Assembly (NCBI RefSeq): GCF_055900595.2
Contig: NZ_CM148325.1
DNA: 64,000 nt
Strand: one strand, 5' to 3'
Positions 62,631 to 64,000 of this stretch are shown piece by piece. Made by a program: the position numbers and the translations under genes. The notes under the pieces were generated by a model. That model ran no database searches and was not told the DNA's origin. It was given only the letters and a program-made list of their open reading frames with translations. How positions within the stretch are numbered: the first letter of the stretch is position 1; every line of letters begins with the position of its first letter.

Positions 62631-62693
62631 CGCATTAAAAATGCCTGGTAAGCACCCGCTTACCAGGCAACGCATCAAGAACAGGTAATCACC

Positions 62694-63317
62694 GTGCTCA
62701 ACAAACTCTCCTCACTGCTGAAAGACGCAGGAATTTCGCTTACCGATCACCAGAAAAACCAGCTTATTGCCTACGTGAATATGCTGCATAAGTGGAATAA
62801 AGCGTACAACCTGACTTCGGTCCGCGATCCTAATGAGATGCTGGTACGCCATATTCTCGATAGCATTGTGGTGGCACCGTATCTGCAAGGTGAACGGTTT
62901 ATCGATGTCGGCACCGGACCAGGACTGCCTGGCATTCCACTCTCTATCGTGCGTCCTGAAGCCCATTTCACGTTGTTGGATAGCCTTGGTAAACGCGTGC
63001 GTTTCCTTCGTCAGGTGCAACATGAGCTTAAACTGGAGAATATTGAGCCAGTACAGAGCAGGGTAGAAGAGTTTCCATCAGAGCCGCCCTTTGATGGCGT
63101 AATTAGCCGCGCCTTTGCCTCTTTGAACGATATGGTGAGCTGGTGCCACCATCTTCCTGGTGAGCAAGGTCGTTTCTACGCGCTGAAAGGCCAAATACCG
63201 GAAGATGAAATCGCTTTGTTGCCCGAAGAATATCAGGTCGAATCAGTGGTTAAACTTCACGTTCCGGCCCTGGATGGCGAACGTCATCTGGTGGTGATTA
63301 AAGCAAATAAAATTTAA
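62694..63317 (+). CDS. rsmG: 16S rRNA m7G527 methyltransferase RsmG (GidB)
   Basis: 207-aa ORF with SAM-binding [12 protein letters not shown] motif; immediately downstream of mnmG. Confidence 0.95.
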
Positions 63318-63402
63318 TTTTTATCAAAAAAAACATAAAAAAATGACCGGTTAGACTGTTAACAACAACCAGGTTTTCTACTGATATAACTGGTTACATT
63401 TA

Positions 63403-63448
63403 ACGCCACGTTCACTCTTTTGCATCAACGAGCTAACGTGGCTTTTTT
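63403..63448 (+). terminator. candidate terminator downstream of rsmG
   Basis: Inverted repeat gccacgtt...aacgtggc followed by TTTTTTGG. Confidence 0.45.
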
Positions 63449-63814
63449 GGGTAAGCAGAAAATAAGTCAGCAGTGAAAATATCAGGCTGCTAAAAATCGG
63501 CGCTAAGAACCATAATCATCTGTTAAAACATTATTAAAAATGTCAATGGGTGGTTTTTGTTGTGTAAATGTCACTTATTAAAAGAGTGTCTGTTTTTGGA
63601 CTTAAATATCATAAACTTGCAATGGCATCATTTGCCAAGTAAATAAATATGCTGTGCGCGAACATGCTCAATATGTGATCTGAAGCACGCTTTATCGCCA
63701 GTGTTTACGCGTTATTTACAGTTTTTCATGATCGAACAGCGTTAGCAGAAAAGTCGCAATTGTATGCACTGGAAAAATATTTAAACATTTATTCACCTTT
63801 TGGCTACTTATTGT

Positions 63815-63842
63815 TTGAAATCACGGGGGCGCACCGTATAAT
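63815..63842 (+). promoter_or_regulatory. candidate atp operon promoter
   Basis: TTGAAA (63815..63820) - 16 nt - TATAAT (63837..63842), about 90 nt upstream of atpI. Confidence 0.5.
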
Positions 63843-63933
63843 TTGACCGCTTTTTGATGCTTGACTCTAAGCCTTAAAGAAAGTTTTATACGACACGCGG
63901 CATACCTCGAAGGGAGCAGGAGTGAAAAACGTG

Positions 63934-64000
63934 ATGTCTGTGTCGCTCGTGAGTCGAAACGTTGCTCGGAAGCTTCTGCTCGTTCAGTTACTGGTGGTGA
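63934..64000 (+). CDS. atpI: ATP synthase protein I, N-terminal fragment (runs off window end)
   Basis: ATG at 63934 followed by MSVSLVSRNVARKLLLVQLLVV, matching the N-terminus of AtpI. Confidence 0.8.
   Translation, partial: MSVSLVSRNVARKLLLVQLLVV

What the first reader, a model, noticed from the sequence alone, without database searches (positions are those of the whole stretch)
63318..63933. Long AT-rich rsmG-atpI intergenic region
At 616 bp this is the longest non-coding stretch in the window apart from oriC. It contains a candidate rsmG terminator and at least one strong sigma70-like promoter for the atp operon (TTGAAA-16-TATAAT); the remaining roughly 400 bp have no assigned feature from sequence alone and include only very short ORFs.
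Basis: seen in the sequence. Interest (0 to 1): 0.2.

Follow-up and report, generated by a model that had tools for sequence, protein, structure and literature searches.

The report
Upstream control region of ATP synthase operon
This 616-base gap in E. coli holds the end signal of the rsmG gene and the known main promoter of the ATP synthase operon. It also holds about 400 bases of upstream protein-binding sites whose spacing has stayed almost unchanged across more than 60 related species, so it is ordinary in kind but unusually rigid.

Summary
Window 63318-63933 is the 616-bp rsmG-atpI spacer of E. coli. Its GC content is 36.7% against 51.6% for the window. It is the longest stretch without an annotated feature in the window, longer than the 378-bp oriC gap.

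A hairpin plus T-run at 63405-63448 is a plausible rsmG terminator.

The "unassigned" roughly 400 bp is not empty. Across 61 Enterobacteriaceae species it contains near-invariant blocks separated by spacers that vary at a neutral-like level but keep a fixed length. Published genome-scale data already assign several of the blocks:
- a CRP box at 63674-63689 (SELEX, and crp-dependent lacZ activity);
- an ArcA box at 63520-63540 (ChIP-seq);
- an FNR-like, Fis-covered site at 63314-63327.

Block 63460-63497 is unassigned. I found no conserved small ORF, no conserved RNA structure and no Rfam match.

Total length is 612-621 bp in all 61 species, which is tighter than the oriC gap. The neighbouring mnmG-rsmG spacer ranges from 53 to 118 bp in the same species. 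Strains in which 63483-63806 is replaced by a cassette are viable, so the upstream region modulates rather than being essential.

Verdict: a known kind of feature, mostly already known. The rigid spacing is a modestly interesting addition.

The parts
63314..63327 (.). FNR-like palindrome TTAATTTTTATCAA overlapping the rsmG stop codon. It opens the conserved A/T block 63318-63337.
   Evidence: Myers 2013 lists TTGATAAAAATTAA at U00096.2 coordinate 3921070 as a high-scoring FNR match that has no FNR ChIP peak and is covered by Fis ChIP-seq signal. I mapped that coordinate to the window. The block has a mean majority frequency of 0.83 across 61 species.
63405..63448 (+). Candidate intrinsic terminator of rsmG: 8-bp stem GCCACGTT/AACGTGGC with a 22-nt loop, then T6.
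   Evidence: Sequence and fold. The stems are not conserved. Hairpin-plus-T-run sites occur at shifting positions between 63389 and 63447 in many, but not all, species. No mapped 3' end could be retrieved.
63411..63447 (+). Distal promoter-like element TTCACT-17-TAACGT (63411-63439), with reported RNA 5' ends at 63446/63447.
   Evidence: The spacer is 17 bp in 61/61 species. TAAC and T-AC are conserved. The strict pattern TTnACn-17-TAnnnT is kept in 21/61. Dominant short extracellular RNAs of MG1655 have 5' ends at 3922927/3922928 on the minus strand, and the locus is flagged as a 'promoter island' (PMC8082180). The 5' ends could be a transcription start or a processing site.
63460..63497 (.). 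Conserved block D, AATAGTCAACA..GAAAATATCAG.CTGCTAAAAAT in most species. No factor is assigned.
   Evidence: Mean majority frequency is 0.87, against 0.535 at rsmG four-fold degenerate sites. A loose IHF-like core TATCAGGCTGCTA is kept in 58/61 species, and a two-mismatch inverted ArcA-like repeat in 52/61.
63520..63557 (.). ArcA box CTGTTAAAACATTATTAAAAA (63520-63540), continuing into the invariant ATGTCAAT...GGTTTTT.
   Evidence: [quoted passage not shown] The TGTTA-N6-TATTA repeat is kept in 56/61 species. Block conservation is 0.885.
63603..63620 (.). Conserved AAATATCA..A..TG element, IHF-like (TATCATAAACTTG). It is the third copy of the AAAT(A/G)TCA motif, after those starting at 63476 and 63537.
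   Evidence: Motif hits. The loose IHF pattern is kept in 43/61 species. Conservation is shown. No binding data.
63674..63689 (.). CRP box TGTGATCTGAAGCACG, centred at -167.5 from the atpIp start. It lies inside conserved block 63661-63695 and contains a conserved GATC at 63677-63680.
   Evidence: Shimada 2011 Genomic SELEX reports the box CGTGCTTCAGATCACA in the atpIBEFHAGDC/gidB spacer. Their atpI-lacZ fusion (primer sites at about 63415 to 63933) is less active in a crp mutant. The pattern is kept in 61/61 species and GATC in 58/61. The distance to the -10 element is 162 bp in 61/61 Enterobacteriaceae, and by a like-for-like measure it equals the window's 161 bp in 5 of 7 Erwiniaceae and is within 1 bp in the other two.
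63696..63771 (.). Semi-conserved spacer of fixed length between the CRP box and the promoter-proximal block.
   Evidence: The interval from CACGCTTT (63686) to the ATTTATTCAC anchor is 101 bp in 61/61 species, although mean conservation is only 0.72.
63772..63797 (.). Promoter-proximal A/T-rich block: Fis-like GAAAAATATTTAAAC (centre -70) and the DnaA-box-like TTATTCACC (63789-63797).
   Evidence: The loose Fis pattern is kept in 53/61 species and the DnaA-like 9-mer in 56/61. The region 63775-63848 has conservation 0.93. The functional assignment is inferred, not shown.
63815..63842 (+). Core promoter atpIp (P1): -35 TTGAAA, 16-bp spacer, -10 TATAAT. The start is near G63849. An FNR-like TTGTTTGAAATCAC (63811-63824) overlaps the -35 element.
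   Evidence: invariant across species. Sigma70 ChIP peak at about 3920520 in U00096.2 coordinates, which maps to about window 63877. atpIp is the main promoter. The start position is my inference from the -10 element plus recalled 1980s mapping (73 nt upstream of the old GTG start at 63922).
63849..63933 (+). 85-nt atp leader (5' UTR), with AGGAG at 63918-63922 ahead of the atpI ATG at 63934.
   Evidence: Conservation is 0.935, as high as codon positions 1 and 2 of the flanking genes. The consensus RNA structure is no better than column shuffles. It is identical between this strain and K-12.

Best explanation
The 616-bp spacer has three functional parts that act at the DNA level.

(1) The first roughly 130 bp after rsmG evolves fast. 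In E. coli it carries a hairpin plus T-run that most likely terminates the mnmG-rsmG transcript.

(2) The last roughly 160 bp is the known main promoter of the ATP synthase operon, atpIp. It has a near-consensus -35 and -10 with a 16-bp spacer, an A/T-rich upstream block with a Fis-like site at -70, a start near 63849 and an almost invariant 85-nt leader.

(3) The roughly 330 bp in between is an extended upstream regulatory region for that promoter. It is an array of protein-binding blocks: a CRP box at -167.5, an ArcA box at about -320, an unassigned block at about -370, and IHF-like or Fis-like A/T elements. These are separated by spacers whose sequence drifts at a neutral-like level but whose length is fixed.

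Shown here or in published data: conservation, fixed spacing, CRP binding in vitro with a crp-dependent reporter, and ArcA occupancy in vivo.

Inferred: the bound proteins act together on atpIp through bent or looped DNA. This would explain why helical phase and distance are preserved, and would tune ATP synthase expression to carbon source, oxygen and growth rate. The tuning is modulatory and not required for growth.
For: Identity and anatomy.

Promoter: an 11/12 match, with a chance probability of 0.03. A sigma70 ChIP peak lies on it. A terminator inserted just downstream lowers atpI, atpB and atpE 17-, 7- and 7-fold.

Conservation across 61 species from more than 20 genera: blocks score 0.86-0.89 and the promoter and leader 0.93, against 0.535 at rsmG four-fold sites. 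The spacers between blocks score 0.45-0.57, which is neutral-like.

Spacing:
- CRP box to -10 is 162 bp in 61/61 species.
- ArcA box to -10 is 315 bp in 55/60, and within 1 bp in the rest.
- A 121-bp interval that includes the least conserved stretch keeps that length in 56/60.
- Total length is 612-621 bp.
- In the same species the oriC gap is 369-383 bp and the adjacent mnmG-rsmG spacer is 53-118 bp.
- In Erwiniaceae the CRP-to-promoter distance matches the window's in 5 of 7 species and is within 1 bp in the other two. The TGTTAA/ATGTCAA pair is shifted by 11-13 bp, about one helical turn, in the four species that have both motifs.

Published binding data: CRP Genomic SELEX box and lower atpI-lacZ activity in a crp mutant. 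An ArcA region in both ChIP-seq replicates with its box on block 63520-63540. An FNR-like site covered by Fis. Conserved candidate Fnr and ArcA sites upstream of atp were noted as unpublished by Ravcheev 2007.

DNA-level rather than RNA or protein: no conserved ORF (best 12/60), at least 7 stops in every frame in every species, consensus RNA folding energy near 0 across the spacer, and no significant Rfam match (one chance-level hit, 20.5 bits against a 70-bit gathering score).
Against: A CRP site at -167.5 is far from the usual activating positions, and no promoter at a standard distance from it is conserved (my reading).

The ArcA ChIP enrichment is weak, about 3-fold.

According to later papers, Kasimoglu 1996 found atp-lacZ expression independent of ArcA and Fnr.

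Cloning strains in which 63483-63806 is replaced by a cassette are viable, so any effect is modest under laboratory conditions.

AA/TT dinucleotides show no clear 10-11 bp periodicity, so intrinsic curvature is not evident.

Block D has no assigned factor.

No experiment links the fixed spacing to promoter output.
Confidence: 0.72

Rival explanations
1. The upstream blocks serve a second, unannotated transcript rather than atpIp. This would be a distal promoter (TTCACT-17-TAACGT) starting near 63446. It would give either a long alternative atp leader or a short independent RNA, and CRP and ArcA would control that transcript.
For: Dominant short RNAs in K-12 have 5' ends at 63446/63447, and the locus is flagged as a promoter island. 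The promoter-like element has a 17-bp spacer in 61/61 species and a conserved TAAC. The predicted start, 7 nt after the -10-like hexamer, coincides with the reported 5' ends.
Against: The element is weak, 7 of 12 consensus positions. The strict pattern is kept in only 21/61 species. The 5' ends lie inside the terminator T-run and could be processing products. No RNA structure, ORF or terminator downstream is conserved. K-12 RefSeq annotates nothing here. The RNAs come from an extracellular short-RNA fraction, not from a transcription-start-specific library.
Confidence: 0.12
2. Only the terminator and atpIp are functional. The rest is neutral AT-rich filler, and its apparent conservation reflects shared ancestry.
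For: Replacing 63483-63806 with a cassette is tolerated in widely used strains. The locus is a popular 'neutral' integration site.
Against: Blocks are conserved at 0.86-0.89, against 0.535 at four-fold sites of the adjacent gene in the same species. Length is invariant, while the neighbouring spacer varies from 53 to 118 bp. CRP and ArcA bind at exactly the conserved blocks.
Confidence: 0.04
3. The region is a chromosome-structuring or replication-linked element of the oriC neighbourhood, bound by nucleoid proteins, and its rigid geometry serves that role rather than atp transcription.
For: It lies 2.6 kb from oriC. Its length is as invariant as the oriC gap. It has a conserved DnaA-box-like 9-mer and a conserved GATC. 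Fis ChIP signal covers part of it.
Against: There is only one 8/9 DnaA-like box. The conserved blocks coincide with CRP and ArcA sites of metabolic regulators. The deletion-replacement strains replicate normally enough to be routine hosts. I found no literature supporting such a role.
Confidence: 0.05
4. It is an H-NS-silenced 'promoter island': AT-rich DNA with many spurious RNA polymerase binding sites that yields only abortive short RNAs.
For: GC content is 36.7%. The locus carries the 'PI' flag and produces short RNAs.
Against: It is a vertically inherited, syntenic core region in every Enterobacteriaceae genome examined, not acquired DNA. The consensus scan finds only one good promoter, against 2.6 expected by chance. 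Conservation is block-wise and site-specific.
Confidence: 0.05

Closest known systems
E. coli atp (unc) operon main promoter atpIp/P1 and its leader
   Same: Same locus and sequence. The 63746-64000 stretch is identical to K-12. [quoted passage not shown]
   Different: Nothing differs in the core. This strain carries 21 substitutions relative to K-12 further upstream, all between 63330 and 63745 and outside invariant positions.
rrnB P1-type growth-rate-controlled promoters (UP element plus upstream Fis sites)
   Same: Near-consensus hexamers with a 16-bp spacer, an A/T-rich block directly upstream of the -35, and a Fis-like 15-mer centred at -70. Reported growth-rate control of atp (Kasimoglu 1996, as cited). 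This comparison rests partly on my own knowledge of rrnB P1.
   Different: Fis binding at -70 and UP-element function are not demonstrated here. The conserved array extends much further, to about -370, and includes CRP and ArcA boxes.
CRP-activated promoters (class I/II) and promoters with distal CRP sites
   Same: An 8/10 match to TGTGA-N6-TCACA with the GTG/CAC core intact, SELEX binding, and a reporter that drops in a crp mutant.
   Different: The site is centred at -167.5, not at -41.5, -61.5 or a nearby position. The non-consensus outer G residues and the CTTT flank are invariant in 61 species, which suggests extra constraints. No co-activator has been identified.
ArcA-P operators (direct repeats of TGTTA at 11-bp spacing; Park 2013)
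   Same: Two repeats, TGTTA and TATTA, 11 bp apart, a 13-bit box and a ChIP-seq peak in both replicates.
   Different: Enrichment is weak. The site is about 320 bp upstream of the promoter rather than overlapping it. The regulatory effect on atp is disputed.
oriC as a paradigm of fixed spacing between protein-binding sites
   Same: Binding sites are separated by spacers whose length is preserved while their sequence drifts. The length range is 612-621 bp here and 369-383 bp for the oriC gap in the same species.
   Different: This is a transcriptional control region, not an origin. There are no DnaA box arrays or AT-rich 13-mers, and it can be deleted.

Membership tests
Sigma70 promoter (atpIp) | -35 and -10 hexamers close to consensus with a 16-18 bp spacer | tested here: met
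   TTGAAA-16-TATAAT, 11/12. Rare by chance, P = 0.03. Invariant in 61 species.
Sigma70 promoter (atpIp) | RNA polymerase occupancy and transcription in vivo | tested here: met
   From the literature: a sigma70 ChIP peak on the site. A terminator inserted downstream lowers atpI, atpB and atpE 17-, 7- and 7-fold. A base-resolution start site was not retrievable.
Intrinsic (Rho-independent) terminator | G+C-rich stem directly followed by a U-tract, downstream of the stop codon | tested here: met
   An 8-bp stem with 5 G-C pairs at 63405-63442, T6 at 63443-63448, 88 nt after the rsmG stop.
Intrinsic (Rho-independent) terminator | Short loop (about 3-8 nt) | tested here: not met
   The loop is 22 nt, partly closed by 3 further pairs. 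The consensus scan does not report the site.
Intrinsic (Rho-independent) terminator | Mapped RNA 3' end at the U-tract | tested here: inconclusive
   The only data found are RNA 5' ends inside the T-run. No 3'-end dataset could be reached.
CRP binding site | Match to TGTGA-N6-TCACA | tested here: met
   TGTGATCTGAAGCACG, 8/10, kept in 61/61 species.
CRP binding site | CRP binding and CRP-dependent expression | tested here: met
   From the literature: a Genomic SELEX peak with this box, and lower atpI-lacZ activity in a crp mutant. The site itself was not mutated in those experiments.
CRP binding site | Standard activating position (-41.5, -61.5, -71.5 and similar) | tested here: not met
   The centre is at 63681.5, which is -167.5 from the start at 63849. 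No conserved -10 element lies at a standard distance.
ArcA-P operator | Two or more TGTTA-like direct repeats 11 bp apart | tested here: met
   TGTTA at 63521 and TATTA at 63532, kept in 56/61 species. 13 bits in Park 2013.
ArcA-P operator | In vivo occupancy | tested here: met
ArcA-P operator | ArcA-dependent change in target expression | tested here: inconclusive
   Reports conflict: no effect according to Kasimoglu 1996, but atp up in an arcA mutant on microarrays.
Small protein gene | ORF with start and stop conserved across species | tested here: not met
   The best ORF is intact in 12/60 species. Every frame has at least 7 stops in every species. K-12 RefSeq has no CDS here.
Structured non-coding RNA or riboswitch leader | Rfam family match or conserved secondary structure | tested here: not met
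   The only Rfam hit is a chance-level Plasmodium family (20.5 bits against a gathering score of 70). Consensus folding energy is about 0, no better than column shuffles, on both strands.
IHF or Fis site (blocks D, 63603-63620 and 63772-63786) | Consensus match plus protein occupancy | tested here: inconclusive
   Only loose consensus matches are conserved. Fis ChIP coverage is reported only for 63314-63327. No IHF data were reached.

The most novel reading that the evidence does not exclude
The whole rsmG-atpI spacer is a stereospecific nucleoprotein scaffold, comparable to oriC in how rigidly its spacing is kept. In it CRP (-167.5), ArcA (about -320), an unidentified factor on block D (about -370), and bending proteins on the repeated AAAT(A/G)TCA elements would assemble on phased DNA to set ATP synthase expression. 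This would provide the missing molecular basis for the robustly optimal atp expression whose mechanism a 2022 paper called 'poorly understood'. A conserved distal start near 63446 could be part of the same device.
Probability: 0.3. Interest if true: 0.5.

Novelty: already known. Interest (0 to 1): 0.3.

Why it matters
ATP synthase is one of the most abundant and costly enzyme complexes in the cell. A 2022 study states that how its operon is regulated molecularly is still poorly understood.

This analysis shows that the DNA upstream of its promoter is not filler. It is a set of binding sites whose mutual distances have been held fixed across two bacterial families. That gives concrete, cheap experiments: phase-shifting insertions, stepwise deletions and a pulldown on block D.

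It also carries a practical warning. The popular 'neutral' atpI-gidB integration design, in the one case whose primers I could read, replaces about 324 bp of this conserved control region. That could change atp expression in engineered strains.

Tried and rejected
- Rfam scan at permissive E-value: only a chance-level hit.
- Small-protein hypothesis: rejected. No ORF is conserved.
- Conserved RNA structure on either strand, using sliding consensus folds against column shuffles: nothing, including the leader.
- Positionally conserved rsmG terminator: rejected. Terminator-like sites turn over between species.
- Intrinsic DNA curvature, tested as AA/TT periodicity: no clear 10-11 bp signal. There is an unexplained 8.5-bp peak.
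- PhoP-like direct repeat TGTTTAcgcgtTATTTA: kept in only 10/61 species, so dropped.
- A sigma54-like TGGCAT...TTGC at 63623: wrong spacing and not conserved (my reading).
- A standard-distance CRP-dependent promoter downstream or upstream of the CRP box: no conserved -10 element.
- Transcription-start tables of Kim 2012: no entry retrievable.
- Thomason 2015 and Kasimoglu 1996: not held in the library.
- Latif 2018 supplement: lists atp only in a table of sigma70 promoter classes, not as CRP binding evidence.
- Search for a report of an unmethylated GATC at the CRP box: nothing found.
- Search term 'atpIp': returned plant aquaporin papers.
- Kuhlman and Cox 2010 primer table: not held. The integration arms were taken from Monk 2015 instead.
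Full report
**What the region is.** The window is E. coli. The 801 bases around the finding are 100% identical to strain 2013C-4282 (NZ_CP027579.1) and to 17 other genomes, and about 96.6% identical to almost all other complete E. coli genomes, including K-12 derivatives. RefSeq annotation places rsmG at 62694-63317 and atpI from 63934, with nothing between them. The K-12 MG1655 record likewise has no feature between atpI and rsmG. The finding's coordinates therefore delimit the 616-bp rsmG-atpI (gidB-atpI) spacer exactly.

**Checking the observation.**
- GC content is 36.7% against 51.6% for the window. The lowest-GC 616-bp stretches of the window all overlap this spacer.
- It is the longest gap without an annotated feature in the window. 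The mioC-mnmG gap that holds oriC is only 378 bp.
- The consensus scan reports one promoter, TTGAAA-16-TATAAT at 63815-63842. Matches this good (11/12) occur three times in the 64 kb on both strands. They are expected in 3% of sequences of this length and composition.
- The terminator candidate is a stem GCCACGTT/AACGTGGC (63405-63442) followed by T6. The local fold is more stable than shuffles, z = -2.9. Its 22-nt loop explains why the simple scan missed it.
- ORFs are at most 29 aa.

**Known parts.**
- The promoter is the classical main atp promoter. A sigma70 ChIP peak maps onto it (Myers 2013 supplement).
- A synthetic terminator placed between 'atpIp' and the atpI start codon reduces atpI, atpB and atpE 17-, 7- and 7-fold. 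The authors conclude that atpIp is the main promoter, with atpBp1 and atpBp2 as minor ones (PMC9277811).
- From the -10 position I place the start at G63849. This agrees with my recollection of 1980s mapping (73 nt upstream of the formerly used GTG at 63922), but that figure is from memory, not from a tool.
- The leader is then 85 nt, with AGGAG at 63918-63922.

**Comparative analysis.**
- A scan of one genome per species with RsmG returned 80 loci. atpI follows rsmG in every locus that extends far enough.
- The spacer is 612-621 bp in 61 Enterobacteriaceae sequences from more than 20 genera, and 711-838 bp in seven Erwiniaceae. GC content is 34-42% throughout.
- In a MAFFT alignment of the 61 sequences (632 columns), the median identity to the window is 65%. 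Conservation is strongly block-wise.
- As a neutral yardstick I used four-fold degenerate sites of rsmG in the same species. Their mean majority-base frequency is 0.535.
- Segments 63338-63403 (0.57) and 63498-63520 (0.45) score at that neutral level, as do the two 20-bp windows covering 63618-63657 (0.57 and 0.49).
- Blocks 63318-63337, 63460-63497, 63521-63557 and 63661-63695 score 0.83-0.89.
- The promoter region and leader (63775-63933) score 0.93, the same as codon positions 1 and 2 of the flanking genes.
- The 21 differences between this strain and K-12 all lie in 63330-63745. From 63746 onward the two are identical.

**Fixed spacing.** I measured distances between conserved anchors directly in each sequence.
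- CRP-like box to the -10 element: 162 bp in 61/61.
- CACGCTTT to the ATTTATTCAC anchor: 101 bp in 61/61.
- TGTTAA (63521) to the -10 element: 315 bp in 55/60, and within 1 bp in the rest.
- The 121-bp interval 63552-63674, which contains the least conserved stretch, keeps that length in 56/60.

As an internal control, in the same species the adjacent mnmG-rsmG spacer ranges from 53 to 118 bp. The oriC-containing gap, a textbook case of fixed spacing, ranges from 369 to 383 bp. The rsmG-atpI spacer (612-621 bp) is proportionally tighter than the oriC gap.

In Erwiniaceae the CRP-box-to-promoter distance equals the window's in 5 of 7 species and is within 1 bp in the other two. The TGTTAA/ATGTCAA pair sits 11-13 bp further upstream, about one helical turn, in the four species that have both motifs. 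In those species most of the extra length lies upstream of that pair, towards rsmG.

**What the blocks are.** Several coincide base-for-base with sites in published genome-scale data, after converting U00096.2 to U00096.3 coordinates (+1977) and then to the window.
- **CRP box.** TGTGATCTGAAGCACG (63674-63689) is the CRP box that Shimada 2011 report from Genomic SELEX in the atpIBEFHAGDC/gidB spacer. Their atpI-lacZ fusion, whose primers span about 63415-63933, loses activity in a crp mutant.
[quoted passage not shown] The box scores 13 bits and enrichment is 3.2 and 3.3.
- **FNR-like site.** TTAATTTTTATCAA (63314-63327), overlapping the rsmG stop codon, is listed by Myers 2013 as a strong FNR-matrix match that has no FNR peak and is covered by Fis ChIP-seq signal. 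Their actual FNR peak lies inside atpI, beyond the window.
- **Earlier notice.** Ravcheev 2007 mention, as unpublished, candidate Fnr and ArcA sites upstream of atp that are conserved in Enterobacteriaceae. They also summarise conflicting expression data.

My own pattern scans add several conserved but unproven elements:
- a Fis-like 15-mer centred at -70 (kept in 53/61);
- a DnaA-box-like TTATTCACC (56/61);
- an FNR-like sequence over the -35 element (42/61);
- IHF-like cores in block D (58/61) and at 63607-63619 (43/61);
- a GATC inside the CRP box (58/61);
- three copies of AAAT(A/G)TCA, starting at 63476, 63537 and 63603, spaced 61 and 66 bp apart.

Block D (63460-63497) has no published assignment that I could find.

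**Excluding RNA and protein explanations.**
- None of the 14 ORFs of at least 10 aa is intact in more than 12 of 60 species.
- Every reading frame has at least 7 stops in every species.
- Consensus folding of 25 sequences (chosen from 29 less than 80% identical to one another) gives energies near zero, no better than column shuffles, in 120-nt windows on both strands. This includes the leader.
- Rfam gives only a chance-level hit.
- The constraint therefore acts on DNA.

**The rsmG-proximal part.** Hairpin-plus-T-run sites occur between 63389 and 63447 in many species but at different positions, and some species have none by my crude criteria. The E. coli hairpin is thus a lineage-specific solution to terminating rsmG, in a segment that otherwise drifts.

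Within it, TTTAAC, T-AC and TAAC are conserved. TTCACT-17-TAACGT has a 17-bp spacer in all 61 sequences, but as a promoter it is weak, and the strict pattern is kept in only 21/61. Its predicted start coincides with the 5' ends (K-12 3922927/3922928, which map to 63447/63446) of dominant short RNAs in the extracellular fraction of MG1655. The authors flag that locus as a 'promoter island' (PMC8082180). These ends lie inside the terminator T-run, so they may equally be processing products. This is the one piece of evidence for a second transcript, and it is ambiguous.

**Dispensability.** The spacer is a popular integration site. The recombineering arms published by Monk 2015 map to window 63807-63856 and 63433-63482. 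Their cassettes therefore replace 63483-63806, which is -366 to -43 relative to the atpIp start. This removes the ArcA box, the CRP box and the Fis-like and A/T block, and leaves only the core promoter. The resulting strains (SA08B, IM08B and relatives) are routine cloning hosts. The upstream array is therefore not needed for laboratory growth, which fits a tuning role. I could not verify that Kuhlman and Cox used the same arms.

**Mechanism proposed.**
- Shown: the anatomy, conservation, fixed spacing, CRP binding with crp dependence of a 520-bp fragment, and ArcA occupancy.
- Inferred: the factors act jointly on atpIp across bent or looped DNA, which would explain why distance and helical phase are preserved even where sequence is free to change. 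The core promoter, with its 16-bp spacer, A/T-rich upstream block and Fis-like site at -70, would work like a growth-rate-controlled rrn P1-type promoter.
- Weak points: the unusual CRP position, the weak ArcA signal, the conflicting expression literature, no clear curvature signal, and the absence of any experiment on spacing.

**Novelty and verdict.** The spacer, its promoter and most of its binding sites are already in the literature or in public datasets, and the kind of feature is ordinary. I did not find the following reported:
- the near-absolute conservation of spacing over more than 300 bp, and of total length over 616 bp, tighter than the oriC gap in the same genomes;
- the unassigned block D;
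- the fact that a standard 'neutral' integration design removes this region.

A 2022 paper states that atp regulation is still poorly understood at the molecular level, so these points give testable leads. Interest is modest, 0.3.

Noticed in passing
window 62631-62693 (hairpin 62642-62669): The mnmG-rsmG spacer holds a perfect 12-bp-stem hairpin that reads as a terminator only on the minus strand, where a T-run follows it. Across the same 60 species this 63-bp spacer varies from 53 to 118 bp, roughly bimodally, as if a hairpin element of about 40 bp were present or absent.
   Followed up: partly
window 63200-64000 and the whole window: The strain belongs to a rare E. coli lineage. Only 18 of 5424 complete genomes are at least 99% identical over this stretch, and nearly all others are about 96.6% identical. 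RsmG differs from the K-12 protein at about 2% of residues.
   Followed up: no
atpI and atpB coding sequences (window 63934 onward; L001 2235-3439): Four-fold degenerate sites of atpI (0.80) and atpB (0.80) are much more conserved across species than those of rsmG (0.535). Codon bias may explain atpB. For the poorly expressed atpI, the internal promoters atpBp1 and atpBp2 or the FNR ChIP peak inside atpI may contribute.
   Followed up: no
window 63849-63933: The 85-nt atp leader is almost invariant (0.935) yet shows no conserved RNA structure. It contains an invariant GCTTGACTC (a -35-like TTGACT at 63861-63866) and an invariant GTTTTATACGACACGCG. What constrains it is unexplained.
   Followed up: partly
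window 63318-63933: AA/TT dinucleotides show a strong 8.5-bp periodicity (z = 8.6 against shuffles, and also the top period averaged over 61 species) rather than the 10-11 bp expected for curved DNA. Unexplained, and possibly a by-product of testing many periods.
   Followed up: no
window 63476-63485, 63537-63546, 63603-63612 (and 63319-63326): Three conserved copies of AAAT(A/G)TCA spaced 61 and 66 bp apart (about six helical turns), with a related TTTATCAA next to the rsmG stop codon. No factor is assigned.
   Followed up: partly
window 24312-24761 and 27766-29244: The annotation of the identical genome shows a PemK/MazF-family toxin gene between rep and ppiC, and three hypothetical genes between ilvY and ilvA. 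As far as I recall K-12 lacks these, so they are probably small strain-specific insertions.
   Followed up: no
window 63483-63806: Published recombineering arms for the 'neutral' atpI-gidB integration site replace this 324-bp conserved control region rather than inserting into it. Engineered strains built this way may have altered atp regulation.
   Followed up: yes
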